Source: a virus (taxonomy: Duplodnaviria > Caudoviricetes). From it: 64,000 nt of DNA. The stretch's first letter is position 1; each line of letters begins with the position of its first letter. The stretch is taken from IMG/VR virus record IMGVR_UViG_3300010355_000898, positions 160,001 through 224,000 of that record, one strand, 5' to 3'. The position numbers and the translations under genes are program-made. Of this stretch, positions 31,235 through 49,453 are shown piece after piece. The notes below the pieces were generated by a model that searched no databases, had not been told where the DNA came from, and worked only from the letters and a program-made list of their open reading frames with translations.

Positions 31235-31520
31235 CACTTTCAACCATTAAATTTGCAACAAGCAATAGGGCATTTATTGATTGTTTCATTTCAAATATGA
31301 ATTTTTTCACAATTGGATCATCTATTAACACAGGTATTTGTGCCATTTCTGACAATATTCTGTATCTATCATTCAAAATATCAAGTGATTTTTCAGTCTG
31401 TTCTGTTACTTCTTCAAGTTTATCAAACAACATTTCAGATTTATGAAAAAACACATATGCAATCAATGATGCAGTGATTAACAAAATTGTTAACAGAATA
31501 ACAACATATATCATAACCAT
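31194..31520 (-). CDS. Small membrane protein (N-terminal TM plus coiled coil)
   Basis: IYVVILLTILLITASLIAYVFF hydrophobic helix. Confidence 0.7.
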   Translation of the reverse strand: MVMIYVVILLTILLITASLIAYVFFHKSEMLFDKLEEVTEQTEKSLDILNDRYRILSEMAQIPVLIDDPIVKKFIFEMKQSINALLLVANLMVESDENDENQNDTTND

Positions 31521-32653
31521 TTACTCAACTTTTCAGAATATTGTGTTTTGATTGCATCAATATTGTACTGCTCTCTAATTTTTTCACCCAATTGCATTGC
31601 CCATTCTTTGGGTATTTGTGGAGATTGTACAAACTTTTTTATTCTCTTTTTGAAATCTTCTTCAGATGCTTGGGCCCATTTAGCATTTGGCATAAACAAT
31701 TTTCCATCAATTCTTGTTTGGTGAATTTGTTGCAATTTGTAATCAATTTGAATGAACTTTCCAATGTTCAAAAATTCAGTATGGGCAGACCAATTTGTTG
31801 CAATTATTGGTAGATCGCATGCAGCGGCTTCCAATAGTGGTAATCCAAATCCTTCACCTCTTGTTAATGATACAAGTGCTTTAATTTTGGGATGTCGATA
31901 CAGGGCTCCAATTTCTTTCTCCGTAGTTGTTCCATGCAAAAGATGAATTTTTGGATATGGACCTTTTCTGACTTCTTTCAAGAGATTTTTGAATATGTTT
32001 GTTGTGATATTTTTGTCAATTTTTGTATTTCTTGATATGTTTGTTTTTATGACAATACCAACATTTGGATCATCACTGAATGTTTCACACATCCATTTTA
32101 ATGTATAGAAAATATTCTTTCTATCATTTTCTGGATTGTTTCCAGTTATTTGGCCAAACAACAAAAAATTGAACTCAGTGTCAATATTGAGATCAATTTT
32201 TGCATCATTATTCAAAATTTCATTTGGAAATGCTTCAGGAACTATTGAGCAATTTTCAACATTTCCAATGCTATTCATTGCATGCTTTGATGGAAAGATC
32301 ACATGATCCATTCTTTTACAATGATTTAACCAATCTGGATTTGAGATGTCTGTTTCAATTGCTGCCGTCAGTCCAATGTTTGTTGTTGCGATTGAATTAT
32401 CCCATTCATTTGGTAGTTGTAATTGTAATGAAACGTCAAATCCTTTCAAATTTGTTGATGATGCATCAAATATTTTTCCAATCATACCATCATACTGATT
32501 ACGATTTAAGATCCATGGTGTATCTCCCCATGGCATTATTTGAAATTTCACATCATATTTTTTTTCATCCAATAACCACTTTGCCACTTGACGACAATGT
32601 ACGCCATAACCAGACTGTGTCAATATTGGGCCACGTAAAAGTACACTTTTCAT
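31511..32653 (-). CDS. Glycosyltransferase, GT4-like (GT-B)
   Basis: SGYG N-terminal motif; RKN; TRGEGFGLPLLEAAACDLPII. Confidence 0.9.
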   Translation of the reverse strand: MKSVLLRGPILTQSGYGVHCRQVAKWLLDEKKYDVKFQIMPWGDTPWILNRNQYDGMIGKIFDASSTNLKGFDVSLQLQLPNEWDNSIATTNIGLTAAIETDISNPDWLNHCKRMDHVIFPSKHAMNSIGNVENCSIVPEAFPNEILNNDAKIDLNIDTEFNFLLFGQITGNNPENDRKNIFYTLKWMCETFSDDPNVGIVIKTNISRNTKIDKNITTNIFKNLLKEVRKGPYPKIHLLHGTTTEKEIGALYRHPKIKALVSLTRGEGFGLPLLEAAACDLPIIATNWSAHTEFLNIGKFIQIDYKLQQIHQTRIDGKLFMPNAKWAQASEEDFKKRIKKFVQSPQIPKEWAMQLGEKIREQYNIDAIKTQYSEKLSKWL

Positions 32654-34177: not shown

Positions 34178-34981
34178 TCATTTACACCATTCAGTATTTT
34201 TGAATTCACACCATTTACAGGCATTGCGATTTTTTAGAGCAATGCCTTTTTTTACGGCACTGATCATATTGTTGACAACTTTTATTGAACGTTCTGTTGT
34301 CAGATCACCAACAGATACTTTGATGAATTCACAACGTTTTCCCTGTTTTGCTACCTTTTTCAAGAGAAGAAATCCACATTGAATATCTTTTGGATCAATA
34401 TTCAATTTTTTTGAATAGAAATTTTTGTACAGGACCAATTGTGATTGGATCATTTTATCAGAACGTTTTTCAGCATTCCAACCCCAATTTGTTGTTTTGA
34501 AATCAATAATCCAATATTTCCACTTTTTTCCACTTTTTGTTGGAACCTTGATTATGCAATCAATAAAACCTTTGAATGCATGTTGTGGAAATTTTTCCAA
34601 TTGCTCATACAATTGGTGTTCTGCATCAACAGGTTGCCAATCAGGAAATGTTTCATTCAAATATTGAGGTAATTCCAACAATATTGCTTCAATATTTTCT
34701 AGGGCACTTGTGAGTGTTTCATGAGGATGAGCATGCTCGAGCCACAATTGCTTGAGCATATTTTGTGCAATGGTTACATCCATTGTTCCGGAATTCAAGA
34801 AATTTTCACACCCAGCATGTGCTGATGTACCAAAATCAAGAATTTCACTCGGTTTTTGATTGTCAATTTTTTCAATGTGATGCAATTTATGACGCCAACT
34901 GCATTCAGACCATTCTTTAACTTCTGAAAAACTTACATGAGGTTTTCCAGTTATTAGATTTTCAAATTGCAATTCAGACAT
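34178..34981 (-). CDS. PD-(D/E)XK nuclease, Cas4/AddB-like with 4-Cys cluster
   Basis: SFSE...C, GTSAH, KGFID, IIDFKT, QLVLY, C-terminal CKWC-x6-C. Confidence 0.85.
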   Translation of the reverse strand: MSELQFENLITGKPHVSFSEVKEWSECSWRHKLHHIEKIDNQKPSEILDFGTSAHAGCENFLNSGTMDVTIAQNMLKQLWLEHAHPHETLTSALENIEAILLELPQYLNETFPDWQPVDAEHQLYEQLEKFPQHAFKGFIDCIIKVPTKSGKKWKYWIIDFKTTNWGWNAEKRSDKMIQSQLVLYKNFYSKKLNIDPKDIQCGFLLLKKVAKQGKRCEFIKVSVGDLTTERSIKVVNNMISAVKKGIALKNRNACKWCEFKNTEWCK

Positions 34982-35994
34982 TAGCTTTTCTTTTCTGGCA
35001 CAATGAAATCAAATTGAAGTTGCTCACCAACGTTTTTGTTGTCTTCAATTTGACTAACCGCACGACCCTTCAGTTTTTCCCAATCTCTTTCAGGACGAAC
35101 TTCAAGATTTTTTTGCCATGCTGCGGACAACACTTTTGGATCAACACCAAGTTGTTTTGACAAAAAGATTAATGAATTCAAATCCTTAACAAAACATGAG
35201 CCAGCGAAACCAGGCAATAATCTACCGGTTCCATCATCTGCCGGCATTGGTCCTGGGACTTTCCAATGTGAATTACCCAATCGCTTATCAAGCGTTGCAA
35301 GCTCAACTATTCTATCATAGTCAATATCTTGACCGGTTTCAAGCAACTTTTCACAAACTTGATATATTTCATTTGCAAATGAAACCTTAACAGCTAAGAA
35401 ATTGTTGATCATATATTTCACCATCTCTGCATTAACTGCTGATGTTTTATGAATTGGAACTTGAGGAAATGCCAACATAAACAATTCTTTAACCTTATTG
35501 ATCCAAGGTCGTGGACCACCAAGAATGATCCTATCCTGATTTCTCATATCATTGAGTGCATTTGCTTCTGTAAGAAATTCAGGACAAAAAACTACATATA
35601 ATCCTTTGTCAACAAATTTTTTGTTCCAATTGTCAACACTTCCAGGTGTGACAGTTGATTTGATCACGGCAATACGTTCACCAGAAACTGATGCCAATTC
35701 TTCCAATGCACCATCGACAATTGACAAATCACAACTTCCATCCATTTTCATTGGCGTTGGAAGACATACAAAATAGATACCAGAAAAATTTGTTTCTCTA
35801 TTTTCAACAGTTTCGCACCTATCAATTAGGTTTGATATTGATGTTACATCACCTTTGTAATCAATTGGGATAGAACTACCTTCAACTCGCTTACCAGTTT
35901 TATCATATGTATAAACTGTTAAACCTCGTTCAGAAAGAACTGTCGTTAAAGATCCGCCAACAAAGCCTTGCCCAATTACTGCTACACTTGTCAT
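34981..35994 (-). CDS. UDP-glucose/GDP-mannose 6-dehydrogenase family, short form without C-terminal domain
   Basis: GQGFVG, VCLPTP, IKSTVTPG, PEFLTE, AEMVKY..N, GFAGSCFVKD (catalytic Cys). Confidence 0.9.
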   Translation of the reverse strand: MTSVAVIGQGFVGGSLTTVLSERGLTVYTYDKTGKRVEGSSIPIDYKGDVTSISNLIDRCETVENRETNFSGIYFVCLPTPMKMDGSCDLSIVDGALEELASVSGERIAVIKSTVTPGSVDNWNKKFVDKGLYVVFCPEFLTEANALNDMRNQDRIILGGPRPWINKVKELFMLAFPQVPIHKTSAVNAEMVKYMINNFLAVKVSFANEIYQVCEKLLETGQDIDYDRIVELATLDKRLGNSHWKVPGPMPADDGTGRLLPGFAGSCFVKDLNSLIFLSKQLGVDPKVLSAAWQKNLEVRPERDWEKLKGRAVSQIEDNKNVGEQLQFDFIVPEKKS

Positions 35995-36032
35995 ATTGAC
36001 ATATTTCAACAAAATTTATGATTGTTCAAAAA

Positions 36033-36770
36033 TCATAATCCAAACTTTGTCAAAAGAACCTGACCATAATCAACTTGTTCATCAGAATATGATCTGTCAT
36101 CTATGAACATTCTTCTATCCATTTTTATCAATTCTTTTTCTGAACAATTGAATTCAATTTCATTAATCTGATCAATCAATACATTGCATTCAATATCACT
36201 CTTATCAAGCGTTTTTGTTGGAAGATGATAATCATCAAACAGCATCAATTTATTGAAATGATGTTGTGTCAGTTCCCAATCAGTTTTTGTACCATTGTAT
36301 GTATGATCACCATCAATGTATATTAGATCATAATTGTCACAATTTTTCAAAGCATTGATTGAAATATCAGGGATGAACTCAATATTGAACCATTGACTTG
36401 GAAAAATTGTTTTGAGTGCATTGAGATGCTGCACAGTTTCTTGTGTTCCAAGATTTGGATCAACAGTTGTTATTCTGTAATCAACACCAAGATCATTGAA
36501 TGTTTTTGCAGCACAAAAAGTTGAATACCCTCTTCCAAAACCAATTTCAAGCATTGATTTGCAATTGTATTTTTTGATCAAATTGCTGATCAGAATACCT
36601 CTTTCATAATTTGATCTGTAGAACATCCCAGTTGTTTTGTATAATGGGTGTGTATTTGTTCTGTGCCTTTTTGCTGTAAATTCACCTATGAAATCAAAAT
36701 CACCCATATTGATTTCATCAATATTTACGCCAATATTTTTCAATTTTGTTTTGATATCAACAATCTTCAT
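36033..36770 (-). CDS. Class I SAM-dependent methyltransferase (Methyltransf_24-like)
   Basis: LEIGFGRGYS, YDLIYIDGDHTY, LFDDY. Confidence 0.85.
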   Translation of the reverse strand: MKIVDIKTKLKNIGVNIDEINMGDFDFIGEFTAKRHRTNTHPLYKTTGMFYRSNYERGILISNLIKKYNCKSMLEIGFGRGYSTFCAAKTFNDLGVDYRITTVDPNLGTQETVQHLNALKTIFPSQWFNIEFIPDISINALKNCDNYDLIYIDGDHTYNGTKTDWELTQHHFNKLMLFDDYHLPTKTLDKSDIECNVLIDQINEIEFNCSEKELIKMDRRMFIDDRSYSDEQVDYGQVLLTKFGL

Positions 36771-37678
36771 AATTCATCAATCAACTTTCTAAATTCATTA
36801 TAGCCCTGTGGTAATTTCAAAAAATCTACATTTGGAATGTGTGGTTTTGCCAATGTAACATCATCATTTATTGCCTCTTGTGGTAAAACTATGTCTGCAA
36901 TTCCAACGTTTCTTGAAACAACTGGAACATCAAGAAGTCCGCATTCAATTAGGGCTTGAGGTCCACCTTCAACTCTTGATGTTATTGGATACAAATTCAA
37001 CATCTGATACAGATCATTTATGACATTTTGTTCAGGACGTTCAAAATAGTGATATTCTATTCCAAGATCATCCAATTTTTTCATAACATATTGTCTTCTC
37101 CAACCTGCCAAAATTACTTCCAATTTGAATTCATTTTTTCCCAATTTCTGCAATTTATCACATGCTTTAATGAACAAATCTGGACCTTTTTCAAGTTTTG
37201 GAGAGGTCAAATCATTGCCCTCTGTATCTCTCTGAAATGAGCCAATCAAAAATACATCATTTGGTACATTGTACTTTTTTCGTAAATTGATAATGTCATC
37301 AGTTTTGTACCAAATTTTTTGATTTGCCCAAAATGGAATTGTAACAATCCTTTTTGTTGTCAATTTGCTGATGAATTCAGCAGTGTGGTGATTTGCAGCA
37401 TGATATACATCTGTTATGTCATCTCTCATCTGAAAATCATAACGTTCATTTGGGCCAAATTTTTCTGGGACGATGTGATGAATTGATGTTATCACTCTTT
37501 TCTGTTTCAGAAATTGATATGGCAATTCTTTCCAACGCCAATCTGATAATAACCATATAACATTAGCACTCATTGGATCTTTGACTGTTATGTCCTGATT
37601 ATCAATTGACCATTCATTAACAAATCTATCACAAATCCAATTTTCATTTGCTGGCAATAACCAAACTCTATTGTGCAT
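36767..37678 (-). CDS. Glycosyltransferase, GT4-like
   Basis: EKGPD; TSRVEGGPQALIECG. Confidence 0.85.
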   Translation of the reverse strand: MHNRVWLLPANENWICDRFVNEWSIDNQDITVKDPMSANVIWLLSDWRWKELPYQFLKQKRVITSIHHIVPEKFGPNERYDFQMRDDITDVYHAANHHTAEFISKLTTKRIVTIPFWANQKIWYKTDDIINLRKKYNVPNDVFLIGSFQRDTEGNDLTSPKLEKGPDLFIKACDKLQKLGKNEFKLEVILAGWRRQYVMKKLDDLGIEYHYFERPEQNVINDLYQMLNLYPITSRVEGGPQALIECGLLDVPVVSRNVGIADIVLPQEAINDDVTLAKPHIPNVDFLKLPQGYNEFRKLIDEL

Positions 37679-38603
37679 TCAGAACCTCATCAAAAAGTTT
37701 GATATACTGATCACAAACTCTATCCATTGAAATGTCATGATGTTTTCCCAAAGAATTTCTTTTTGGTAAATAACTCAATTGTTTTACATCAATTTGTGGT
37801 GGATTATCATAATCATACAATTCAAAATTGTATTTGACGCTATCATTAATGATCATACCATATTCATTCACCAATTCTTTTGTTCCACCAGTGTTTGAAC
37901 AGATGACTGGTAAATCCATACCCAGGGCCTCCACAATTACATTAGGACAATGGTCTGCCCAAGCTAAATGGATCATCCAATCTGATTGTGAATAAATGTT
38001 TAAGCAGTCTTGGTGAGGAATTGTACCAGTGTAATATACATGTGGATCATGTGCATTCACATATGGATTTGAACCCAAGATTATAAGACAACTGTTTTGA
38101 TATCCCAAATCATTTTTGATGTGCTGATAGCAATCAATATTTGCTTCAAGTCTTTTCTGACTGTGCCAATTTGATGAAGAAACAAATACAGTATCGTACT
38201 GTTTTCGTAATGATAGTTGTCCAAATTTGATATTTTCATCAGAAAGATCAATTCCATTGAGAATTGTTGAACACAATTTGTGTTTACCAAACCACTTTTC
38301 TGTCATCTGTTTATCAAAATCTGATTGAAATACACATGCATCAGTTGCATTGTATGTTTCAACAATGTTTCTATTCTTTAGATTGAATTCTTCAGGTTTA
38401 AACCAAATTCCATCAAGTCTTATTATGGACTTTTTTGCCAACCTATTTCCTGATTTTTCTATGAACACAAGAGACACATCTGCATTGTCTGAACTTTGCA
38501 ACACATGATGTCCCCTTTTGAAGAATGCTTTTGCTAAACGTAAAGCAAAACTGTTGGGCCCAGTTCTGCTGTTGAAATCAACATTGTCAAAATGAATATT
38601 CAT
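37668..38603 (-). CDS. Glycosyltransferase, GT4-like
   Basis: ILNGID; QKRL; DHCPNVIVEALGMDLPVICSNTGG. Confidence 0.85.
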   Translation of the reverse strand: MNIHFDNVDFNSRTGPNSFALRLAKAFFKRGHHVLQSSDNADVSLVFIEKSGNRLAKKSIIRLDGIWFKPEEFNLKNRNIVETYNATDACVFQSDFDKQMTEKWFGKHKLCSTILNGIDLSDENIKFGQLSLRKQYDTVFVSSSNWHSQKRLEANIDCYQHIKNDLGYQNSCLIILGSNPYVNAHDPHVYYTGTIPHQDCLNIYSQSDWMIHLAWADHCPNVIVEALGMDLPVICSNTGGTKELVNEYGMIINDSVKYNFELYDYDNPPQIDVKQLSYLPKRNSLGKHHDISMDRVCDQYIKLFDEVLNAQ

Positions 38604-38962
38604 GAACGTCTTTTAATTTCAATGATGAATTGTTCAGCAAATGGCGTACCATTAAAAATGGTTGCAAGCATTGCCAATTCTTTTGTTTCAATGTTTTTTG
38701 GATCAGCATATGCATCAAATATGTTTTCATCCAACAGATCACTATTATTGTTGATTTCTATACTCAAATAGAACATTTGAGAAATGAGGTTCATGGCTTC
38801 ATTTGTCAGTTCAATATTTGATCCTTTCATTACATCAACCATGGTATTGAAAATTTCACTGTATATTTGAATGCATAATGTTCTTGTTATTGGCTGTTCT
38901 GCTGTAATTTTTTTCAATTTTTCTGTCAACAATGTTGAAATTGATTTGAATACATTGTTCAT
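38600..38962 (-). CDS. Hypothetical protein, paralog of 38959..39333
   Basis: Collinear similarity along the whole length (see findings). Confidence 0.7.
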   Translation of the reverse strand: MNNVFKSISTLLTEKLKKITAEQPITRTLCIQIYSEIFNTMVDVMKGSNIELTNEAMNLISQMFYLSIEINNNSDLLDENIFDAYADPKNIETKELAMLATIFNGTPFAEQFIIEIKRRS

Positions 38963-41915: not shown

Positions 41916-42559
41916 AACAACTCTTTCTTGACAAAGATTGCATCTCCCCAATCAAATTTTGTCATATTTGTTTCCATTCTTTTGTATCCAAATTGATTGA
42001 GATATTCTTCCAATTCTGGTAGAAGACAACAATTTTCATACAGTGTGTCTGTGTTGACTTCACTATAAATGAAATCAAATTTTGTTATGAGATTTCCAAT
42101 ACCTTTCAGAACTTTCAATTCGGCACCTTGAACATCCATATTCAAGAAATTGAACATGTTCAGATCAATATTCAAATTCTCATATATCTGATCAAAACGT
42201 TGTGTTTGCAATTTCAATACCTTATCAACTGTTATGTTTGGATAGTGCACAAGATGTTTATCAAGTTTCAGCATTGATGATGATGCCGATCTGAAATTGG
42301 TTGTTACATAAAAATCAACATGTTCTTCAGTGTCAGATAACAGAATATTGTATGCAACATTGTGATCATAAGTTTCAATATTCTGCTTCAGAATATTGAA
42401 TGTTTCAGGATTTGCCTCAAACCAGACAACATTTTTTACATCACAATTTGCATATGCTTCTCTCTCTTCACCAGTGCATGCACCAACATGAATTATGCCT
42501 TTGATCTGCTTTTTGGGATTGTATTTTTCAAACAGATCTTCAAATTTTATGTACATCAT
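41912..42559 (-). CDS. FkbM-family methyltransferase
   Basis: IHVGACTGEE, WFEANP, SSSML, LNMDVQGAELKVLKG, YSEVN, WGDA. Confidence 0.9.
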   Translation of the reverse strand: MMYIKFEDLFEKYNPKKQIKGIIHVGACTGEEREAYANCDVKNVVWFEANPETFNILKQNIETYDHNVAYNILLSDTEEHVDFYVTTNFRSASSSMLKLDKHLVHYPNITVDKVLKLQTQRFDQIYENLNIDLNMFNFLNMDVQGAELKVLKGIGNLITKFDFIYSEVNTDTLYENCCLLPELEEYLNQFGYKRMETNMTKFDWGDAIFVKKELL

Positions 42560-43266
42560 TTTATGATCCCCCGAATGTTTGGATTTATGTTGTATTCTTT
42601 ATGAAGATTTTTCAATTCATTTTCATACAATCTGTAATTCCATTTACCTTTTGATATTGCAGTACAAATATGTGGATATGCTTTACATTCATAATGATAT
42701 TTTCCAATCTTTTTTTCATCATTATGGTATGTAAAAAGACCTCTAATGTTTAGGCTTGTGCAAGCCTCTGTCCAATGTTTTCCTTCAAACCACAATTTTG
42801 ATTTTGCACGTTCATACAACTTTATGAAATCATGCCTTTTCCAGATTGTAATTTGCATTTGAAATATGTCTTGTACAAACTGTGGTGCTTCATAATAGTG
42901 TTCAACAATCAATTTCATATCATCATTGAATCCACACCTAAATGGTCTGATGTATGAATATTCTTTATGATTTGATAGAAAATCTGTGTGCATACTGAAT
43001 GCATTCATATCAATTTTTCCAATTGCTGTATGATCATCTTGTGAATATATGATGTAATCATAATCAATCTGATTGAGTGCATTTACCCAATGTTTATAGT
43101 AATCATCATCATTCTGATATTTCAAAAATGTATGATTTTGTACTCTTGGATCAACATCTGAAATCACATAGCTGTCAACATTGACGTATTTTGTCAACTG
43201 ACCAAAATGCATTGGCCAAATATCACAATATTTGTTGTTTGTGTATGTTACAATTGCAATTGACAT
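42556..43266 (-). CDS. Putative glycosyltransferase (GT2-like)
   Basis: YDYIIYSQDD acidic motif, QITIWK, AISKGKW; cluster context. Confidence 0.65.
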   Translation of the reverse strand: MSIAIVTYTNNKYCDIWPMHFGQLTKYVNVDSYVISDVDPRVQNHTFLKYQNDDDYYKHWVNALNQIDYDYIIYSQDDHTAIGKIDMNAFSMHTDFLSNHKEYSYIRPFRCGFNDDMKLIVEHYYEAPQFVQDIFQMQITIWKRHDFIKLYERAKSKLWFEGKHWTEACTSLNIRGLFTYHNDEKKIGKYHYECKAYPHICTAISKGKWNYRLYENELKNLHKEYNINPNIRGIIK

Positions 43267-44093
43267 GCGTTGTATTCATTATACAACTTTTCAATTGAAA
43301 TTTTGATTGATAATTCTGTTTGATGATCAATCTCATTTGTTCTTGCACTATCAATTGCAGGTGTCGTTTTCATAATTCCACCATCAATGATCGACGTAAG
43401 CATATTCATTTGTTCAAATTTTGTTGAAGCATACTTTTCAAATCCTTGCAATACAGGTACTTGCATAATGTCACACAATTTTTCAAATATATCTGTTCTC
43501 CAAATTGTAGGTCTGGATGTATAATGCCAATTTGTTTTCAAAAACTTGTATGAGTTTACATCATTACATTGTTCCCAAATCAATTTTTGATTTGAAACTG
43601 TATTGTAAAATCTGATTGCATCAGGATTTTTTGATTTATTTGTTATGTCACAATTGTACTGATTGAAATTGTTGAATTCAATAATCGGCACTCTAACGCA
43701 AGCAACATCTGCATTATTTTTATCATCCAAATGTTTGATGCATGCAATCAATTTTTCATTTGCATCTTGATGCATTATGAAATCATCATAACAATACATC
43801 AAATAGTCAGAATTGTTACGTTTTGCTTCCCATAGTGTTACAAAAAACACTGCAATATCAAAAAAGTTTTCATTGAAATGAACATACTTTTTGAATGGTT
43901 TGTTTTGTAATGTTTGCTTTACGCATTCAATTGAACAGTTATCAACTGAAACACAATTGAATTTTTCAATGTATTTGAATGTATTGATGCTATCATTGAA
44001 GTGTTTTTGACGATAACTTTTGTTGGCTTCATTAACATACGTTAAATAACCAATTGTCAATTTATTGTGCAAATTTGTTGAAAAATTGTTCAT
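43248..44093 (-). CDS. Putative glycosyltransferase (GT2-like)
   Basis: VDNCS, YLMYCYDDF, RPTIWR. Confidence 0.65.
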   Translation of the reverse strand: MNNFSTNLHNKLTIGYLTYVNEANKSYRQKHFNDSINTFKYIEKFNCVSVDNCSIECVKQTLQNKPFKKYVHFNENFFDIAVFFVTLWEAKRNNSDYLMYCYDDFIMHQDANEKLIACIKHLDDKNNADVACVRVPIIEFNNFNQYNCDITNKSKNPDAIRFYNTVSNQKLIWEQCNDVNSYKFLKTNWHYTSRPTIWRTDIFEKLCDIMQVPVLQGFEKYASTKFEQMNMLTSIIDGGIMKTTPAIDSARTNEIDHQTELSIKISIEKLYNEYNACQLQL

Positions 44094-44955
44094 AAAGTTT
44101 TGCAATATTGTTTATGTGAAATTGTTTTGCCCACTCATATGATCTGTTTGAAATATCCATTCTCAATTTATGATCACAAATCAACATTTCAAGTTTTTCA
44201 ATGAATTCATTTTTTGATGTTATTGATAACCATGCATCTCCACCAAATTCTTCAAAACTTTTATATCCACTTGAAACAGTTGGAATTCCATATGATTGAA
44301 AATTTGTCAATTTTGCATTTGGTTTGAATTGATGTACATATGATTTATAACCACAATTTTCAACAAAAATTGCTCCAATATCAATTGTTTTCATCAATTC
44401 ATGACATTCAATTCTTGTATTTGGATGTTTATGAACAAAATTGATATCATACTTTTTGCACAATTTTTCAACATCATCATATGCATCAAATTGATTCTGA
44501 ATTCCAATGAAACCTAAAGTTTCAACATTCTGTTTCACATCAATTCTATGTTTTTCAAAATTGACAGCATGATGTGGTATCACTGATATACGTTCATCAT
44601 CAATGAATTTTTTCATTTTCAATAATGCTGATGAATTGTTGACAATTATTCCATCAACGTTGTTAACATAATGCGACCAATCAATTTCATTTTCACCATT
44701 TGGATACTGTTTATGCTGATCAGCAACAGGTCTATCAAGAAGATCATAAACTATTTTGCAATTTTGGTGTTTCAATCTTTTTGCCAAATCAACATCAATT
44801 TGACGAATGAATATAACAATGGCATTATTCAATTTCAAGATTTCCTGTCTGTTCAAATTGATGTCAAAAAATCTTGAATCATTTATTACACCTGAAATTT
44901 GTATGCCTCTTATCAACCCAGATGTGCGTTCTTTCATTCCAATGAAAGCAATCAT
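44062..44955 (-). CDS. Putative glycosyltransferase (GT-B)
   Basis: IVYDLLD, VIPHH, KPNAKLTNFQSYGIPTV. Confidence 0.7.
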   Translation of the reverse strand: MIAFIGMKERTSGLIRGIQISGVINDSRFFDINLNRQEILKLNNAIVIFIRQIDVDLAKRLKHQNCKIVYDLLDRPVADQHKQYPNGENEIDWSHYVNNVDGIIVNNSSALLKMKKFIDDERISVIPHHAVNFEKHRIDVKQNVETLGFIGIQNQFDAYDDVEKLCKKYDINFVHKHPNTRIECHELMKTIDIGAIFVENCGYKSYVHQFKPNAKLTNFQSYGIPTVSSGYKSFEEFGGDAWLSITSKNEFIEKLEMLICDHKLRMDISNRSYEWAKQFHINNIAKLYEQFFNKFAQ

Positions 44956-45875
44956 TTCATAACCTCAAACATATATTGTACTCTTGCTTGTGCTGTATGA
45001 TATAGTTCAGCATGTTTCCAACAATCTGTCTGAATTGTTTTGAAAAGTTCATAATCTGATAAAACAGTTCTCAATTTCATATTCAATTCATCAATAGTGT
45101 CAAATTTGATACAATTTTTCATATCTTCAAAATCATGTGGCATTATAATATGCCATCTTTGGTATGCTGGAATTGCACCCTGACCTATAATTTCCCACAA
45201 TCTTGCATTGCAATCACCACCACCCCATGCATCAATTCCAATCTTTGATTGTTTCAGATTGTTGATATATTCATCAAATTTGATGCCCGATTTTTTGAAA
45301 ACTTTGTAATCTTTAAATTCACAATTATAGATTTGAGATCTCAAACCAGTTTGCAATTGACCAAAACATGTAAACAGATCATAATGACGATTATGATCAT
45401 CAAAATGTGTGTTCTGCACAATACCAAATGGTAATGGCACTATTCCTTTATCAATGTCATCAGGATAACATTCTCTTTTAAAGTACCATTTACACCTTCT
45501 GAAAAAATGATCATTAATCCAGGGTTCTCCTCGCCTTCTTAATGCATTATTCATTGATAACAAAACTTGATTTGGTAATGGGTATGCAGTTGCAGTCCAT
45601 TCACTACCATCAATGTATGCTACCTTTTCCCATGCATTTATATTGTTCAAAAGATTGTATTTTGGTGGTGAATTATCTCGAACTTTTCCAAAAAAAGCAA
45701 AAATGTAATCACAATCTTTTGCATATTGAATAAATTCATAATCATTCAAATTCTGTACACAACCATTACCAGAATTTGAAACCTCAAATTGTATATTAGC
45801 ACTCTTTAAGCCAGACAATACAGTTGAAACAAGATAATCATGTTTCCTATCTGGCGTTATGCAAGCTATTCTCAT
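44952..45875 (-). CDS. Putative glycosyltransferase (GT-B, Glyco_trans_1_2-like)
   Basis: YIDGSE, YFKRE, PLPFG, GGGDCNARLWEI. Confidence 0.7.
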   Translation of the reverse strand: MRIACITPDRKHDYLVSTVLSGLKSANIQFEVSNSGNGCVQNLNDYEFIQYAKDCDYIFAFFGKVRDNSPPKYNLLNNINAWEKVAYIDGSEWTATAYPLPNQVLLSMNNALRRRGEPWINDHFFRRCKWYFKRECYPDDIDKGIVPLPFGIVQNTHFDDHNRHYDLFTCFGQLQTGLRSQIYNCEFKDYKVFKKSGIKFDEYINNLKQSKIGIDAWGGGDCNARLWEIIGQGAIPAYQRWHIIMPHDFEDMKNCIKFDTIDELNMKLRTVLSDYELFKTIQTDCWKHAELYHTAQARVQYMFEVMK

Positions 45876-46792
45876 AATGCATCAATTATATTCATGAATT
45901 CATTACAACATTTTTCAATGTCAAGATTTCTGTAAATGATCTTTTTTCTGTATTTGTCAATATCATTTGACATGATCTTCAGTTTTTGAATGAAATCATC
46001 AAAATCTTGATACATTTCACCATGATGTTTACATACGTCTACGATTGCACCACCATCTCTGTGATAGAGAACTGGTAATCCACAACTTGCACCCTCTATA
46101 TGATGCATTCCACAAGGCTCATATCTTGATGCTGTCACATATATGTCACATTTTTGCAATTCTTTTCCAAGATTTTCACCATAAAGTGGCTCAATTAACT
46201 TTGTTGATTTTGGACGATATTGAGAATTATATCTTCCAATGTATGTGAATTCAAACTGATTGTTATCAGTAACAAATTGATCAATCTGATTATAGATGTC
46301 AAATCCTTTCATCCAATTGTCAGACCAATGATGTGTAACCAATCTAATCTTTTCATTATTGTGTTCAATTGGTTTGAATATTGACTGATCACAACCATTA
46401 TAGATGACATGTGATTTCTTGTTGTATCCAAGTTTTATGAAATATTGTTGTAACCATTCACTGATGAAAACAACTTCATCAGATACATTCATTGATTTCA
46501 TAACAACATTGTCAATATCGTTGGTGCCTTTTCTTGCGTCACATTCATTGACTCTGTACAATATTTTTGTTCTTGGATTTTTTAGTTTGTAATCATAAAT
46601 TTCATTGATTGATAATGAACCATCACCATCATATCTTGGATCAATCATAAAGATAACATCAATGTCATTTTCAAAATGATGCACAACTTTGTGACCATGT
46701 TGAATCAAAAAATCAACCATCGCAGTCAAAAATTGTGATCCACCACCCCAAGGTGTTTTGCGAACATTTCTGTTGAAATATATCTTTTTCAT
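45872..46792 (-). CDS. Glycosyltransferase, GT4-like
   Basis: WGGG, IYNGCD, MKGFD, ASRYEPCGMHHIEGASCGLPV. Confidence 0.88.
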   Translation of the reverse strand: MKKIYFNRNVRKTPWGGGSQFLTAMVDFLIQHGHKVVHHFENDIDVIFMIDPRYDGDGSLSINEIYDYKLKNPRTKILYRVNECDARKGTNDIDNVVMKSMNVSDEVVFISEWLQQYFIKLGYNKKSHVIYNGCDQSIFKPIEHNNEKIRLVTHHWSDNWMKGFDIYNQIDQFVTDNNQFEFTYIGRYNSQYRPKSTKLIEPLYGENLGKELQKCDIYVTASRYEPCGMHHIEGASCGLPVLYHRDGGAIVDVCKHHGEMYQDFDDFIQKLKIMSNDIDKYRKKIIYRNLDIEKCCNEFMNIIDAL

Positions 46793-47535
46793 ACAAAATT
46801 TTCCCATGGAGCACCATTTGCAACATAACCACGATTTCTTATGAAATCGGCTTCCATTTTTTGGAATTTTGCATCATCAGTTTGAAACGTTTCTGGTTTC
46901 ACGTCAATTGTGTAATGATACATTACCCTTGGTATGAAAACATTTTTTCTTGATTGATGAAGAACCGGAAGATAGAGGGCCTGATCTCCACAACGTTTTA
47001 CTGGATCACCGTTGTGATTTGAGAAATTTTCCCATGGAATATTTGTAAGCAATTGTTTTCTGAATGTTTTGAGATGACTTGTTACCCATGGTTGAACATA
47101 TACACTAATTCCCTCTTTTAGAGGAGCAGATATGTTGAAATCTGACATGTCCCAACGATGTTTTGACCAAGCACAATCACATCCAGTTTGTTCATAACAT
47201 GCATTAAATTGATACAATGCATCCAAATCACAAAGATAATCATCAGCATCAATTCTGCAAATGATATCATCATCATTACACTGTTTAATACCATTCAGAA
47301 CATTAACAGTTTCCCATTTCTTTTTGTCATTCCAAACTGTTATGATTTTGTGTTCATAACAGTTGAACTGTTTCAAAATTTCAATACATTTTTGTTTATG
47401 TTCTGCATCAGAAACATCATCAATCAGTACTAACTGCCAATTTTCATATGATTGACCAGCTAAACTGTGTAACATTCTTGCAAGTGTTTTGCTTGCATTA
47501 TACATTGGTGCAATGAAAACAAATCGATTATTCAT
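46789..47535 (-). CDS. Glycosyltransferase, GT2
   Basis: APMYNA, LIDDVS, RIDADD. Confidence 0.9.
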   Translation of the reverse strand: MNNRFVFIAPMYNASKTLARMLHSLAGQSYENWQLVLIDDVSDAEHKQKCIEILKQFNCYEHKIITVWNDKKKWETVNVLNGIKQCNDDDIICRIDADDYLCDLDALYQFNACYEQTGCDCAWSKHRWDMSDFNISAPLKEGISVYVQPWVTSHLKTFRKQLLTNIPWENFSNHNGDPVKRCGDQALYLPVLHQSRKNVFIPRVMYHYTIDVKPETFQTDDAKFQKMEADFIRNRGYVANGAPWENFV

Positions 47536-49453
47536 GATTAGTCCAAGAATTCATAATTTTGGGTTCAGATTCACTGATTGTAATCCAAGGAGTTGGACGA
47601 TTAAAATCAATCCTTGTGTGAAAAATCCAACCACCAAGATCATTTTTCATTCTTGTGGCCAATTTTTCAATTTCATCATCTGTAACTTCTGACCAAGATT
47701 TTTCGAAAAACATATTATTTTCTGGTATGTCAGTTTGAACTTTGTTGAAGAGTGACATCCAATGTTTTGACCAATAATTTTTGTATGTGTGTATTTTTCG
47801 CTCAATATTGAACCATGAATAATGATAAATGCTTGGAACATTTTTGATCAAATTTTTTGCCCAATTTTCATATATTTTCAATGCTGATGCATTTCCATTC
47901 AATGCATCAAGACGAATTTTTTCAACATCTTGATGATAGAATGTTGCAAATGGAACGCTTTCAAATGTGTCACAGAAAATGTAATCACATCCATCAGATC
48001 CCAAAGAATAGAGCTCGCCATTTTCATCATATGCTCTGTGATTTTTTGGTATGCCATGTGTAATATTTGACACATTTCTTGACAATCTCCATTTCCATGG
48101 ATTTACATCAACTCTAACCTTTTCATGACCACCCCAATATTCAATCACTGGCAATGCAATGAGATCACATTGTTCTGGGAAGTTTTTTGCAATATTTCTG
48201 ATCTTTTCATAATCATGTTCATTAACAACTTCATCAATATCCTGCTGCCAACAATATTTCCCTTTACACTGTTCTCTTGCATACGCTTTCTGTTGACCAT
48301 CAAACAATGCAAATCTTTTATCATTCCAATCCCTTTTTAGTTGTTTCAATATCAATTTTGGTTCTTCAACTGACCATTTTTGCAATTCTTCCCATGTACC
48401 ATCAGTTGAACCACCATCAATGACAACAACTTCATCACAAAATCCCAATAGTGAAATTATTGATTGTCGCCAAGGATATTTTTGTTCAATACAATTTCTT
48501 GTTTGAGTATATCCTGACAAAAGAATGTCATTTTTTGCATCATTAACAGAATTCCAAAACACATTTTTTGCATTTGTAAGATGTTCAATCATGTCATGAT
48601 TTTCACCATTGAACCATTGTTCATTTTTATGTTGAACATGATCATTGATGATCAGTTTACAATTGAGCATTTTTGCTTCAATTACCATTCTTGGACATGT
48701 GTCACCACCATTTGGCAAATAAACAAATCCTTCTGCTGATGCAATTTTTTTCAATGTTTCATCATATGAAAGACCCCAAATTATTTCTGGATTTATGTTT
48801 TTTGATCTGCACCAATTGAGTGCATTTTCATATCCTTTGACCCAAGATTGTGATCCAAGTACAATCCACCCAGATTTTTTTTCATTCTGTAATTCAAGTT
48901 TCAGTTTACTGATTGAATTCAGAGTATCATCTGAAAATACACTTGACAGAATGATGTTTTTTGTATTTGAAAGATATGAAAATCTTGTATGATATATGTT
49001 CTTTTGTGTTTCAGACATCCAAAACAGAATCTTTGCACCCTTATACAGTGATGCAATCATTTTTCCATGTTCTGAATTGTGACAATTGCATGGAACATGC
49101 TCTAAAAACATATGCTTTTCAATTGATCTGTGTACACAAAACTTGTAATCATATTCAATGACACAATAGTTGAGCATGCTGATAATGCTGGGGATTAGGT
49201 TATTGTTCATTGTTGAACAATTGCAGAAGATCCAAAATTTGTCCCTATTCTGCTCTATGATCTTTTTTGTGAGATTTTTTGCTTTCAATCTTGTGACTGA
49301 ACTTGAACTTTTGGCGCTCTGTATGAGCGCCTCTGTGGTCAATTCTGCACCACCAGAATATTCATCTGCAAAAAGATCAGCAACAAAAATATATTCAGCT
49401 TCCTGTGGAATCTGTTCCATGACATCAAATAATGATTTTGAAAAATCAAACAT
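47528..49453 (-). CDS. Bifunctional glycosyltransferase: N-terminal GT-B (GT4-like) fused to C-terminal GT2
   Basis: GGAE, WVKG, DTCPRMVIEAKM, then CDEVVVIDGGSTDGT and QQDIDE. Confidence 0.85.
   Translation of the reverse strand: MFDFSKSLFDVMEQIPQEAEYIFVADLFADEYSGGAELTTEALIQSAKSSSSVTRLKAKNLTKKIIEQNRDKFWIFCNCSTMNNNLIPSIISMLNYCVIEYDYKFCVHRSIEKHMFLEHVPCNCHNSEHGKMIASLYKGAKILFWMSETQKNIYHTRFSYLSNTKNIILSSVFSDDTLNSISKLKLELQNEKKSGWIVLGSQSWVKGYENALNWCRSKNINPEIIWGLSYDETLKKIASAEGFVYLPNGGDTCPRMVIEAKMLNCKLIINDHVQHKNEQWFNGENHDMIEHLTNAKNVFWNSVNDAKNDILLSGYTQTRNCIEQKYPWRQSIISLLGFCDEVVVIDGGSTDGTWEELQKWSVEEPKLILKQLKRDWNDKRFALFDGQQKAYAREQCKGKYCWQQDIDEVVNEHDYEKIRNIAKNFPEQCDLIALPVIEYWGGHEKVRVDVNPWKWRLSRNVSNITHGIPKNHRAYDENGELYSLGSDGCDYIFCDTFESVPFATFYHQDVEKIRLDALNGNASALKIYENWAKNLIKNVPSIYHYSWFNIERKIHTYKNYWSKHWMSLFNKVQTDIPENNMFFEKSWSEVTDDEIEKLATRMKNDLGGWIFHTRIDFNRPTPWITISESEPKIMNSWTNHE

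What the first reader, a model, noticed from the sequence alone, without database searches (positions are those of the whole stretch)
31511..49453. 18-kb phage glycan locus with about 12 glycosyltransferase genes and no export or polymerase genes
Seen: about 13 GT domains (GT-B and GT-A, one fusion), a nucleotide-sugar dehydrogenase, an epimerase and two methyltransferases, mostly coupled by overlapping stop/start codons. The GTs show no clear TM segments, and I recognised no flippase, polymerase, ABC exporter or undecaprenyl-phosphate priming transferase. The locus runs directly into baseplate and fibre genes. Known: O-antigen and capsule loci need such membrane components; some actinophages and giant viruses glycosylate their own virions with encoded GTs; T-even phages glucosylate DNA with only one or two GTs. 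Inference: a soluble pathway building a complex methylated glycan on a cytoplasmic acceptor, most likely the virion.
Basis: partly seen in the sequence, partly recalled or inferred. Interest (0 to 1): 0.82.

Follow-up and report, generated by a model that had tools for sequence, protein, structure and literature searches.

The report
Jumbo-phage glycan island with swappable cassette
An uncultured 270-kb phage carries an 18-kb block of soluble sugar-linking enzymes: a few are conserved across hundreds of related phages as strongly as tail proteins, the rest are swapped like a cassette, and the sugars most likely go onto the phage particle, not its DNA, though this is untested.

Summary
Window 31511-49453 holds 20 genes. 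Twelve glycosyltransferase (GT) domains are well supported, one is weak and one protein is unresolved.

No locus protein has a transmembrane segment. Neither this 269.5-kb record nor two complete relatives encodes a Wzx-, Wzy-, ABC- or WecA-like polytopic protein.

The locus has a conserved frame: a phage-specific GT-B/GT-A fusion, the nuclease, an obligate GT4 pair, a small membrane protein and a gp55-like sigma. A hypervariable cassette of 0 to 26 kb sits inside this frame.

The frame GTs rank 7th, 8th and 17th among 53 core orthologs, level with the tail sheath.

DNA is very unlikely as the acceptor:
- A separate hydroxymethylcytosine module lies 130 kb away.
- Two near-complete relatives have the frame but no base-hydroxymethylation genes.
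- A cultured relative, Flavobacterium phage immuto, has published LC-MS data that report no sugar-bearing nucleoside.

The choice between virion and host envelope remains open; I favour the virion at about 45%. This scan had already found the same frame-plus-cassette island on related DNA. Comparable islands are published for cyanomyophages, pelagimyophages and moraphages.

The parts
47528..49453 (-). Frame gene 1: a 641-aa GT-B (residues 17-310) / GT-A (305-620) fusion with a conserved Cys/His cluster. It heads the operon.
   Evidence: Pfam GT2. AF2 model pLDDT 89.6. GT-B half Z 20.4; GT-A half nearest SunS, RmlT and TarS. More than 2000 homologs at 52-58% identity. Found in 412 viral contigs. 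Absent from 185k bacterial genomes except 2 short MAG contigs.
46789..47535 (-). GT2, semi-conserved first cassette gene
   Evidence: Pfam PF00535, E 5e-15. Present in 64 of 80 related loci.
45872..46807 (-). Cassette GT4
   Evidence: Pfam. Present in 28 of 80 loci.
44952..45875 (-). Cassette GT-B (Glyco_trans_1_2), unique to this genome
   Evidence: Pfam E 2.8e-7. No ortholog in 80 loci.
44062..44955 (-). Probable GT-B, weakly supported
   Evidence: phrog_7162 E 2e-4. PF13524 E 0.07. 5i45 E 0.35.
43248..44105 (-). Cassette GT-A (GT2-like)
   Evidence: Atlas features 0.97-0.98 and TM 0.62-0.67 to GT2 clusters.
42556..43266 (-). 236-aa protein of a 9-member orphan family; fold unresolved
41912..42559 (-). 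FkbM-type methyltransferase
   Evidence: PF05050, E 3e-17.
41112..41951 (-). GT8-like retaining GT-A of an unannotated family; the DXD motif KLDNDL is invariant
   Evidence: 23 homologs without Pfam. Alignment A4. Model pLDDT 93. Foldseek hits to LARGE1, XXYLT1 and LgtC.
40122..41096 (-). NAD-dependent SDR epimerase/reductase, nearest GDP-fucose synthase
   Evidence: PF01370, E 2e-39. NF047922, E 1e-32 but below cut-off.
39323..40144 (+). GT-A (GT8/Nucleotid_trans-like) on the opposite strand; the likely start is near 39353
   Evidence: It fills the only gap on the minus strand. Atlas pTM 0.81, with GT-A relatives.
38600..39333 (-). Tandem pair of about 120-aa helical paralogs of unknown function
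   Evidence: Mutual E 2e-4. 38600-like proteins occur in 11 loci. No Pfam match.
36767..38603 (-). Two cassette GT4 genes (37668-38603 and 36767-37678)
   Evidence: Pfam. Present in 42 and 27 of 80 loci.
36033..36770 (-). Methyltransf_24 / O-methyltransferase
   Evidence: Pfam E 5e-12.
34981..36012 (-). Nucleotide-sugar dehydrogenase with N-terminal and central domains only; the C-terminal UDP-binding domain is not matched
   Evidence: Pfam. TIGR03026 covers positions 2-306 of 413.
34178..34981 (-). Frame gene: PD-(D/E)XK (Cas4/RecB-like) nuclease. It marks the fixed end of the cassette.
   Evidence: PF12705, E 4e-17. phrog_69. Conserved in position in relatives and in phage immuto.
32650..33900 (-). 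Frame GT4a, with an intact EX7E motif
   Evidence: Pfam. Alignment A2. Best PDB relative over the full length is chlorovirus B736L, 3oy2, E 2e-14. Seventh most conserved of 53 core orthologs.
31511..32653 (-). Frame GT4b, always adjacent to GT4a, with an intact EX7E motif
   Evidence: Pfam. Alignment A3. PDB search. The pair is kept even in relatives at 33% identity.
31194..31520 (-). 108-aa protein with one N-terminal TM helix, translationally coupled to GT4b and overlapping the sigma gene. It may be a GT anchor or a sigma regulator.
   Evidence: KD 2.86. An N-terminal hydrophobic helix (KD-19 >= 1.6) in 14 of the 15 close relatives, the 15th scoring 1.42.
30446..31243 (-). gp55-like late sigma factor (weak match), at the end of the coupled gene run
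   Evidence: phrog_234, E 1e-4. Position conserved.
49484..49490 (-). ATAGTTG, one base off the promoter-like motif ATAGTTA, 26 nt before the operon's ATG
   Evidence: 14 of 25 ATAGTTA sites lie within 60 nt upstream of a same-strand start, against 4% expected.

Best explanation
The locus is a phage-autonomous, fully soluble glycan-assembly system with two layers.

Layer 1 is the frame, which is fixed across the lineage. It consists of the phage-specific GT-B/GT-A fusion and the obligate GT4a/GT4b pair, four catalytic domains in all. Inference: the frame puts a conserved inner core of a few sugars on a conserved acceptor that is not DNA.

Layer 2 is a swappable cassette, 12.5 kb here. It holds about nine further GTs, two methyltransferases, an SDR epimerase and a dehydrogenase. 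Inference: the cassette supplies special donors, then extends and O-methylates the glycan, giving each phage strain its own outer structure.

Shown:
- Enzyme identities, solubility, and the lack of any membrane export or priming protein in this genome and in two complete relatives.
- The frame-plus-cassette anatomy and fast cassette turnover.
- Core-gene conservation of the frame GTs.
- Separation from the genome's hydroxymethylcytosine module.

Inferred: the acceptor is one or more virion proteins (capsid, sheath or fibres), glycosylated in the cytoplasm before or during assembly. This would resemble chloroviruses, mimiviruses and some mycobacteriophages.

The operon ends in the late-sigma gene. 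The enzymes would therefore be made just before or together with the late virion proteins.
For: Enzyme set and fold assignments.

No TM segments in the locus and no polytopic proteins in G000, G004 or G005. Only 9 of 768 cassette proteins from 72 relatives have a strongly hydrophobic segment.

Frame and cassette:
- The fusion-to-nuclease distance runs from 24 nt (no genes) to beyond 9.5 kb in 60 of 72 loci. There are 265 cassette families, 170 of them singletons.
- The cassette is 19 kb in G004 and 26 kb in G005.
- Cassettes are identical at >= 95% anchor identity but almost wholly different in some pairs at 80-91%.

Core status:
- GT4a averages 51%, the fusion 50% and GT4b 45% identity to orthologs in two complete relatives; the 53 shared orthologs average about 39%.
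- They rank 7th, 8th and 17th of 53, beside the tail sheath and above baseplate, helicase and PhoH.

Phage-specific: more than 2000 homologs in metagenomes and 412 viral contigs, but no real bacterial copy in 185,579 species genomes.

Structural context: baseplate and fibre genes lie downstream here, and tail-fibre homologs lie directly upstream in 10 relatives.

Not DNA:
- A MilA-like cytosine hydroxymethylase, an epimerase, a kinase-like protein and a 430-aa unnamed protein sit 130 kb away.
- G003 (93% complete) and G004 (100%) have the frame but no ThyA family, Tet_JBP or C5-MTase.
- Flavobacterium phage immuto_2-6A carries nuclease-GT4a-GT4b plus a 10-gene sugar cassette. Its virion DNA gave only dA, dC, dT and fdPreQ1 by LC-UV-MS/MS (PMC10516641).

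Weak pointers to a protein acceptor:
- The GT-A half is nearest the peptide glycosyltransferase SunS.
- GT4a is nearest chlorovirus B736L.
Against: - There is no direct evidence for any acceptor.
- No virion protein has a conspicuous Ser/Thr-rich tract; the maximum is 50% over 30 residues.
- In phage immuto and the 33%-identity group, the GT4 pair is not next to structural genes.
- A conserved single-pass membrane protein follows GT4b in close relatives. It could tether the enzymes to the inner membrane.
- The top Foldseek hits of the GT-A half include RmlT, TarS and TarP, which decorate lipid-linked teichoic acid.
- Published readings of similar islands favour host-surface remodelling (PMC7029224, PMC7824862).
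- The promoter assignment is weak, because the motif is one base off consensus.
- That the frame and cassette enzymes work on the same molecule is an inference from position only.
Confidence: 0.45

Rival explanations
1. Host-envelope remodelling. The soluble GTs act at the cytoplasmic face of the inner membrane on host lipid-linked intermediates (Und-PP-sugars, lipid A-core). They use the host's own priming transferase, flippase or ABC exporter, and ligase. The infected cell's O-antigen or capsule changes, which would block superinfection or stop progeny re-adsorbing to debris.
For: - Bacterial O-antigen and capsule GTs are also TM-less, so the lack of TM segments does not argue against this (general knowledge).
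- A conserved N-terminal-TM protein is coupled to GT4b in close relatives.
- The GT-A half resembles RmlT, TarS and prophage TarP, which decorate lipid-linked polymers.
- A hypervariable cassette is what diversifying selection on a surface antigen would give.
- This is the published reading for pelagimyophage, cyanophage and jumbo-phage islands (PMC7029224; PMC7824862).
Against: - The frame GTs are lineage-core genes, as conserved as the tail sheath, across phages at about 39% mean identity. Accessory conversion genes are usually sporadic.
- The fusion GT has no bacterial counterpart.
- No complete relative encodes a primer, flippase, polymerase, exporter or ligase. Host Wzx and Wzy are usually specific for their own repeat unit, which fits poorly with 265 cassette families.
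- The TM protein may instead serve the adjacent sigma gene.
Confidence: 0.3
2. DNA hypermodification. The GTs build mono- to oligosaccharides on hydroxymethylcytosine in the phage DNA, as in T-even phages, RB69 and the pathways of Pyle et al.
For: - The genome encodes a MilA-like cytosine hydroxymethylase, with Asp at the position of the thymidylate-synthase Asn.
- GT4- and GT2-like enzymes are known to glycosylate 5hmC, up to trisaccharides (10.1101/2023.12.21.572611).
- A nuclease sits inside the locus.
- The locus dehydrogenase could feed UDP-glucuronate to the UXS-like enzyme near the polymerase.
Against: - The hydroxymethylase is 130 kb away, in its own module with an epimerase, a kinase-like protein and a candidate transferase. 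Such pathways are normally clustered.
- Relatives G003 and G004 keep the frame without any ThyA, TET or C5-MTase gene.
- Phage immuto has the nuclease-GT4a-GT4b set plus a cassette, and no glycosylated nucleoside was reported in its DNA.
- Twelve to thirteen GT domains far exceed any known DNA glycan.
Confidence: 0.05
3. Another cytoplasmic or released product. The enzymes make a free oligosaccharide, glycolipid or glycosylated small molecule, or they glycosylate host proteins. The product would serve host take-over or be released at lysis.
For: - No acceptor is identified.
- GT4 relatives include BshA, sucrose-phosphate synthase and trehalose synthases, which act on small molecules.
- No export genes would be needed if the product is released by lysis.
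Against: - Thirteen GT domains with hypervariable content fit a surface-exposed polymer better than a metabolite.
- Placement in the tail module.
- No carrier or scaffold gene was recognised.
Confidence: 0.15
4. Artefact: a bacterial polysaccharide locus misassembled into a phage contig.
For: None beyond the bacterial look of the enzyme families.
Against: - GC of 30-35% is continuous with the flanks.
- The same frame, in the same order, occurs in 412 viral contigs and in a 293-kb genome with terminal repeats.
- The genes are translationally coupled to the sigma and baseplate genes.
Confidence: 0.01

Closest known systems
'LPS / cell-wall' glycosyltransferase islands of large myophages: the cyanomyophages P-SSM2, S-SCSM1 and S-SCSM2R (PMC12801897), the pelagimyophage 'host recognition cluster' (PMC7029224), and the 'capsular polysaccharide modification systems' of jumbo phages (PMC7824862)
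   Same: - A hypervariable island of soluble GTs, NDP-sugar enzymes and methyltransferases inside or beside the tail module of a large myophage.
- The acceptor is untested.
- S-SCSM2R's 13 GTs are called the highest number in a marine phage. This locus alone has 12-13 domains.
   Different: - Here the island is framed by lineage-core GTs (a fusion plus a GT4 pair), conserved like structural proteins and absent from bacteria.
- Sequence homology to the cyanophage and pelagiphage genes was not tested.
Moraphages, a lineage of large aquatic phages with four core glycosyltransferase orthogroups (PMC12619734)
   Same: - An aquatic, low-GC, large T4-like myophage with a sigma factor, PhoH, gp6/gp25 baseplate proteins and a prohead protease.
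- Four conserved GT genes: the fusion, GT4a, GT4b and, mostly, the GT2.
- Variable genomic islands are noted.
- Bacteroidota hosts are predicted, and the cultured relative here infects Flavobacterium.
   Different: - The paper does not describe the locus architecture, the fusion or the acceptor.
- Membership could not be tested by sequence.
- DnaK and glutamine synthetase are absent from this record but present in some relatives.
[quoted passage not shown]
   Same: - PD-(D/E)XK nuclease, GT4a and GT4b in the same order, at 24%, 35% and 31% identity.
- They are followed by a GT2, aminotransferases, a methyltransferase, an epimerase and further GTs.
- The phage is cultured, so the system is testable.
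   Different: - A 160-kb phage with no fusion GT found.
- The cassette lies after the pair, not before it.
- The locus is not next to baseplate genes.
- Its DNA carries fdPreQ1, not hmC.
Virus-autonomous capsid glycosylation of chloroviruses (GT4 protein A546L/B736L, PDB 3oy2) and of Megavirinae fibrils
   Same: - Cytoplasmic, virus-encoded GTs and methyltransferases build a conserved-core, variable-outer glycan on virion proteins, without host ER/Golgi or membrane export.
- GT4a's best solved relative over its full length is B736L.
   Different: - The hosts are eukaryotes.
- B736L's own function is unknown (PMC5408694).
- Similarity is remote, at E 2e-14 for a profile.
Mycobacteriophage virion O-glycosylation (Che8, Corndog, Myrna; Freeman et al. 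2023, as cited in PMC12619734)
   Same: Phage-encoded soluble GTs glycosylate the phage's own capsid and tail-tube subunits.
   Different: - Those are small siphophages of Gram-positive hosts with only a few GT genes.
- No homology was tested.
- The paper itself was not held in the library.
Phage DNA sugar hypermodification: T4 alpha/beta-GT, RB69 arabinosyl-hmC, and the BGCs of Pyle et al. (10.1101/2023.12.21.572611)
   Same: - GT-A and GT-B enzymes related to LPS and teichoic-acid GTs.
- This genome also makes a hydroxymethylase.
   Different: - The locus is not clustered with the hydroxymethylase.
- The frame persists without one in relatives.
- No glycosylated nucleoside was reported in the cultured relative.

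Membership tests
Wzx/Wzy- or ABC-transporter-dependent O-antigen/capsule locus | An initiating polyprenyl-phosphate glycosyl-phosphate transferase (WbaP/WecA type, polytopic) | tested here: not met
   No protein with more than 5 hydrophobic segments in G000. None with 6 or more in complete G004 and G005, except one 1585-aa protein. This is a hydropathy scan, not a family HMM.
Wzx/Wzy- or ABC-transporter-dependent O-antigen/capsule locus | Flippase plus polymerase, or an ABC exporter | tested here: not met
   Same scans. Only 9 of 768 cassette proteins in 72 relatives have a strong hydrophobic segment.
Wzx/Wzy- or ABC-transporter-dependent O-antigen/capsule locus | Several soluble GTs with nucleotide-sugar synthesis and tailoring enzymes | tested here: met
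Phage DNA sugar-hypermodification pathway (T4 / RB69 / Pyle et al.) | GT genes clustered with a ThyA-type hydroxymethylase or a 5mYOX/TET enzyme | tested here: not met
   The hydroxymethylase is at genome position 60.3-61.3 kb, 130 kb from the locus, in its own module. No Tet_JBP was found, although that control search rang nowhere.
Phage DNA sugar-hypermodification pathway (T4 / RB69 / Pyle et al.) | Co-occurrence of the GTs with base-hydroxymethylation genes across relatives | tested here: not met
   G003 (93% complete) and G004 (100%) have the frame but no ThyA family, Tet_JBP or C5-MTase.
Phage DNA sugar-hypermodification pathway (T4 / RB69 / Pyle et al.) | Sugar-bearing nucleosides in virion DNA | not testable with these tools
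   Not testable for this phage. For the cultured relative immuto, published LC-UV-MS/MS shows dA, dC, dT and fdPreQ1 only (PMC10516641).
Virion glycosylation systems (mycobacteriophage Che8 type; chlorovirus/mimivirus type) | Virus-encoded soluble GTs without membrane export genes | tested here: met
Virion glycosylation systems (mycobacteriophage Che8 type; chlorovirus/mimivirus type) | GT genes associated with virion structural genes | tested here: inconclusive
   Adjacent to baseplate and fibre genes here and in close relatives. Not adjacent in phage immuto or the 33%-identity group.
Virion glycosylation systems (mycobacteriophage Che8 type; chlorovirus/mimivirus type) | Glycan covalently bound to capsid or tail proteins | not testable with these tools
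   This needs purified virions. No Ser/Thr-rich acceptor tract was seen.
Hypervariable GT island of large myophages (cyanomyophage LPS cluster / pelagimyophage HRC) | A non-syntenic island of GTs and sugar enzymes within the structural region, differing between related phages | tested here: met
   265 families among 768 cassette proteins. Jaccard median is 0.12 for pairs under 65% anchor identity.
Hypervariable GT island of large myophages (cyanomyophage LPS cluster / pelagimyophage HRC) | Homology of the island genes to those of cyanophages or pelagiphages | not tested
   GT4a hits in GenBank phages were Flavobacterium, Microcystis and Rhodothermus phages and one huge phage.
Moraphage lineage (PMC12619734) | Four core GT orthogroups plus T4-like structural core, sigma and PhoH | tested here: met
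Moraphage lineage (PMC12619734) | DnaK/DnaJ chaperones and glutamine synthetase; phylogenetic placement with the published genomes | tested here: inconclusive
   HSP70 is found in G001 and G005 only, and glutamine synthetase in G001 only. This record is 74% complete. The published genomes were not available for comparison.
CAZy GT4 (retaining GT-B) for GT4a and GT4b | GT-B fold with a C-terminal EX7E motif | tested here: met
   Pfam PF00534. Invariant E286/E294 in A2 and E267/E275 in A3. Full-length PDB relatives.
CAZy GT8-like retaining GT-A for 41112-41951 | GT-A fold with a DXD motif, nearest to GT8 structures | tested here: met
   Model pLDDT 93. Hits to LARGE1, XXYLT1 and LgtC at E 4e-8 to 1e-6, TM up to 0.57. 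Invariant D119-N-D121. No sequence-level family match.

The most novel reading that the evidence does not exclude
A whole lineage of jumbo phages of Bacteroidota (hundreds of genomes) runs its own cytoplasmic protein-glycosylation system. A phage-only GT-B/GT-A fusion and a GT4 pair lay a conserved core glycan on virion proteins. A rapidly exchanged cassette then writes a strain-specific, methylated outer glycan. This would be a bacterial-virus counterpart of chlorovirus and mimivirus capsid glycosylation, and the first case in which a phage's 'serotype' is encoded by a swappable locus.
Probability: 0.35. Interest if true: 0.8.

Novelty: new variant of a known kind. Interest (0 to 1): 0.55.

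Why it matters
Large phages of many lineages carry big glycosyltransferase islands, and no one has shown what they glycosylate. Here the question is narrower.

- DNA is largely excluded, by gene phyletics and by published nucleoside data on a cultured relative.
- The system is shown to be a core trait, conserved like tail proteins and absent from bacteria.
- A cultivable test system is named: Flavobacterium phage immuto on Flavobacterium sp. LMO8.

If the virion is the acceptor, phage particles would carry variable glycan coats. That has consequences for adsorption, for avoiding re-adsorption to debris, for grazing and for particle stability. If the host envelope is the acceptor, a core phage function would rewrite the cell surface within one lytic cycle.

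The locus also yields unannotated GT families, including the GT8-like 41112 family and the phage-only fusion.

Tried and rejected
Searches that found nothing useful:
- Megablast of the locus, and tblastn of the fusion, against 50,697 GenBank phages gave no match.
- Single-sequence PDB searches of the unknown ORFs were uninformative.
- hhalign of the unknown ORFs, or their small alignments, against GT-B (A2) or GT-A (A6) profiles gave no signal. Only structure prediction resolved 41112.
- The 42556 family stays unassigned.
- Pfam at E <= 10 added only a weak hit for 44062.

Ideas tested and rejected:
- A T4-type late promoter, TATAAATA: 0 sites.
- Unbiased 8-mer enrichment upstream of genes found nothing. 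The motif ATAGTTA was found by eye and then tested.
- GtfA/GtfB-like 'active plus dead' pairing of GT4a and GT4b: rejected, because both keep EX7E.
- Ser/Thr-rich acceptor tracts in virion proteins: none convincing.
- An all-against-all comparison of locus proteins shows no recent paralogy among the GTs.

No context from large metagenome contigs and no read or expression evidence could be obtained. Freeman et al. 2023 was not held in the library.

Full report
CONTEXT

The window is bases 160001-224000 of a 269,547-bp IMG/VR virus record. The record is linear and CheckV rates it 74% complete.

It is a jumbo T4-like myophage:
- gp6-like and gp25/53-like baseplate wedge proteins, a fibre protein and a gp55-like sigma lie on the minus strand.
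- A helicase, PhoH, a ClpP-like protease and an RpoD-like sigma lie on the plus strand.
- Elsewhere in the genome are a major head protein, tail tube, two sheath paralogs, a prohead protease, DnaB and UvsX.

The nearest cultured phages share only about 30-34% identity on the helicase: Tunturi_5, Bacillus phage G and the 'huge phages'.

OBSERVATION

The run 31511-49453 holds 20 genes. Nineteen are on the minus strand, and most overlap by 1-19 nt.

Pfam confirms:
- six GT-B/GT4 proteins and two GT2 domains;
- a nucleotide-sugar dehydrogenase (N-terminal and central domains only);
- an SDR epimerase;
- a Methyltransf_24 and an FkbM methyltransferase;

The 641-aa first gene is a true fusion. Its AlphaFold model (pLDDT 89.6) has a GT-B half, residues 17-310, with Z 20.4 to sucrose-phosphate synthase, BshA, PglA, PimA and WaaG. 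It also has a GT-A half, residues 305-620, whose best match is the peptide S-glycosyltransferase SunS (Z 14.9). Foldseek additionally lists RmlT, TarS and TarP.

Three Pfam-less genes are also GTs:
- The only plus-strand gene, 39323-40144, fills the single gap on the minus strand. It is GT-A by the Atlas model and its neighbours.
- 43248-44105 is GT-A.
- 41112-41951 belongs to a 23-member unannotated family. It folds at pLDDT 93 into a GT8-like retaining GT-A, nearest LARGE1, XXYLT1 and LgtC, with an invariant KLDNDL motif.

44062-44955 is weakly GT-B. 42556-43266 remains unassigned. The total is 12 firm GT domains plus one weak one, in line with 'about 13'.

Membrane proteins:
- A Kyte-Doolittle scan finds no TM segment in any locus protein, and no protein with more than five hydrophobic segments in the whole record.
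- I repeated the scan on two complete relatives (284 kb; 293 kb with terminal repeats). Again there is no polytopic protein of the Wzx, Wzy, ABC or WecA kind.

ANATOMY FROM RELATIVES

The fusion has more than 2000 homologs at 52-58% identity over its full length in metagenomes. It occurs in 412 IMG/VR contigs.

Gene-by-gene comparison of 99 related loci shows a fixed frame, in this order:
1. fusion GT
2. [cassette]
3. PD-(D/E)XK nuclease
4. GT4a (32650)
5. GT4b (31511)
6. an approximately 100-aa protein with one N-terminal TM helix
7. gp55-like sigma
8. baseplate genes

The cassette between the fusion and the nuclease varies widely:
- It holds no genes in three loci (24-32 nt between the two). 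It exceeds 9.5 kb in 60 of 72 loci.
- It is 19 kb and 26 kb in the two complete genomes, and 12.5 kb here.
- Its 768 proteins fall into 265 families, 170 of them singletons.
- Seven of this window's cassette genes have no ortholog in any related locus.
- Cassettes are identical when the anchor is >= 95% identical. They are already almost entirely different in some pairs at 80-91%.

GT4a and GT4b are always adjacent, even in a distant group at 33% identity. Both keep the EX7E catalytic motif.

HOW CONSERVED IS THE FRAME?

Fifty-three orthologs are shared with the two complete relatives. They average about 39% identity to G000; the median over all reciprocal best hits is 37% for G004 and 40% for G005. 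GT4a (51%) ranks 7th, the fusion (50%) 8th and GT4b (45%) 17th.

They rank behind the prohead protease, tail tube, major head protein, DnaB, UvsX and one unannotated 402-aa protein. They sit level with the tail sheath and above baseplate, helicase, PhoH and sigma.

The fusion has no true counterpart in one genome from each of 185,579 bacterial and archaeal species. It appears only on two short MAG contigs that look like phage fragments. The frame is therefore a core, phage-specific trait and not a recently captured host gene.

IS THE ACCEPTOR DNA?

This rival had to be taken seriously. The same genome encodes a ThyA-family protein whose best solved relatives are the CMP hydroxymethylase MilA (E 3e-42), against 5e-22 for true thymidylate synthases. 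It has Asp where thymidylate synthase has Asn. Phage GT4- and GT2-like enzymes are known to put up to three sugars on 5hmC.

Three tests speak against DNA for this locus:
1. The hydroxymethylase lies 130 kb away, in its own module next to the polymerase. That module has an epimerase, a kinase-like AAA_28 protein and a 430-aa protein without any family. An earlier follow-up of this scan read that 430-aa protein as the DNA sugar transferase; I could not confirm the assignment.
2. Relatives G003 (93% complete) and G004 (100%) have the frame but no ThyA-family, Tet_JBP or C5-methyltransferase gene. The Tet_JBP search rang nowhere, including in the control genomes, so that negative is weak.
3. [quoted passage not shown] Published LC-UV-MS/MS of its virion DNA shows only dA, dC and dT, plus fdPreQ1 replacing dG (PMC10516641).

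A possible metabolic link remains. The locus dehydrogenase could feed UDP-glucuronate to the UXS-like enzyme near the polymerase.

VIRION OR HOST ENVELOPE?

No tool can settle this.

For the virion:
- Core-gene status, phage specificity and the absence of any export or priming function in complete genomes.
- Placement ahead of baseplate genes, with tail-fibre homologs directly upstream in ten relatives.
- Weaker: the SunS-like GT-A half, and the fact that GT4a's best solved full-length relative is chlorovirus NY-2A B736L (E 2e-14). B736L belongs to a virus group that glycosylates its own capsid, but its own function is unknown.

For the envelope:
- Bacterial O-antigen GTs also lack TM segments.
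- A conserved single-pass membrane protein is translationally coupled to GT4b in close relatives. It also overlaps the sigma gene and may serve that gene instead.
- RmlT, TarS and TarP are among the top fold neighbours.
- Published readings of comparable islands favour surface remodelling.
- No virion protein shows a striking Ser/Thr tract.
- In phage immuto the pair is not beside structural genes.

TIMING

The motif ATAGTTA is strongly promoter-like. Fourteen of 25 sites lie within 60 nt upstream of a same-strand start, against 4% expected. One of these sites precedes the gp6-like gene.

The operon's own upstream region has ATAGTTG, one base off; this variant is not enriched in front of genes. 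The operon is translationally chained to the gp55-like sigma gene, so the frame GTs are probably made no later than that factor. This fits all rivals except a strictly late role.

WHAT IS KNOWN

Large GT islands in phages are published:
- Cyanomyophage 'LPS' or cell-wall clusters. S-SCSM2R has 13 GTs, called the highest number in a marine phage.
- The pelagimyophage host-recognition cluster.
- Jumbo-phage 'capsular polysaccharide modification systems'.
- The moraphage lineage, with four core GT orthogroups and predicted Bacteroidota hosts. This phage resembles that lineage but could not be placed in it.

This scan has also met the same frame-plus-cassette island on related DNA before.

- The case against DNA as acceptor.
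- The core-gene ranking.
- The phage-only status of the fusion.
- Three newly assigned GT folds.
- A cultured test system.

VERDICT

The locus is real and ordinary in kind. It is notable for its size and its frame-plus-cassette design, and its acceptor is still unknown. My estimates are:

| Acceptor | Probability |
|---|---|
| Virion proteins | 0.45 |
| Host envelope | 0.30 |
| Other product | 0.15 |
| DNA | 0.05 |

Noticed in passing
G000 genome 54.8-61.3 kb (L090:14839-19344), outside the window: A separate hydroxymethylcytosine module. It holds an AAA_28 kinase-like protein, a 430-aa protein with no Pfam or PDB relative, a TviC/GalE-like epimerase and a 356-aa MilA-like cytosine hydroxymethylase with Asp at the thymidylate-synthase Asn position. 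An ArnA/UXS-like SDR and a GNAT lie at 44.9-46.4 kb.
   Followed up: partly
window 34981-36012: The nucleotide-sugar dehydrogenase matches only the N-terminal and central domains (343 aa here, about 288 aa in relatives). The C-terminal UDP-binding domain seems to be missing, so its activity or partner is unclear.
   Followed up: no
window 39323-40144 (+) against 38959-39333 (-) and 40122-41096 (-): A single GT-A gene is inverted inside the minus-strand operon. It has only about 20 nt to the divergent neighbour and a 23-nt convergent overlap, so its promoter must lie inside neighbouring coding sequence.
   Followed up: partly
whole genome; e.g. window 26409-26415, 8002-8008, 3430-3436: The motif ATAGTTA behaves like a promoter -10 element. 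Fourteen of 25 sites lie within 60 nt upstream of a same-strand start, mostly before large structural genes. No T4-type TATAAATA is present.
   Followed up: partly
window 33901-34177: A 277-nt gap between the nuclease and GT4a holds an 83-aa plus-strand ORF (33921-34172). In relatives this gap is 10-60 nt.
   Followed up: no
window 27675-28616: A 313-aa protein with four C-terminal hydrophobic segments sits inside the baseplate module. It has no family match.
   Followed up: no
L090:5161-14396 (genome 47.2-56.4 kb): The DNA polymerase III alpha gene is split into several ORFs, with Hint/intein-splicing matches and a C2H2 zinc-finger ORF between the pieces. It is probably an intein-interrupted polymerase.
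   Followed up: no
genome 247815-249737 (L149); 9-2387 and 2442-5441 (L153, L155): The major head protein is 640 aa, with the capsid domain only in residues 351-622. There are two tail-sheath paralogs of 792 and 999 aa; the 792-aa one has the most Ser/Thr-rich stretch of the proteome, near residue 60.
   Followed up: no
window 49551-49764: Six perfect 25-bp repeats and a (TCAGTGG)8 array lie between the PAS-membrane gene and the operon promoter, as earlier notes say. I saw them in the sequence but did not study them.
   Followed up: no
L116 (NC_055915 37208-62446): In phage immuto the nuclease-GT4a-GT4b set lies just after the lysis cassette (endolysin, holin).
   Followed up: no
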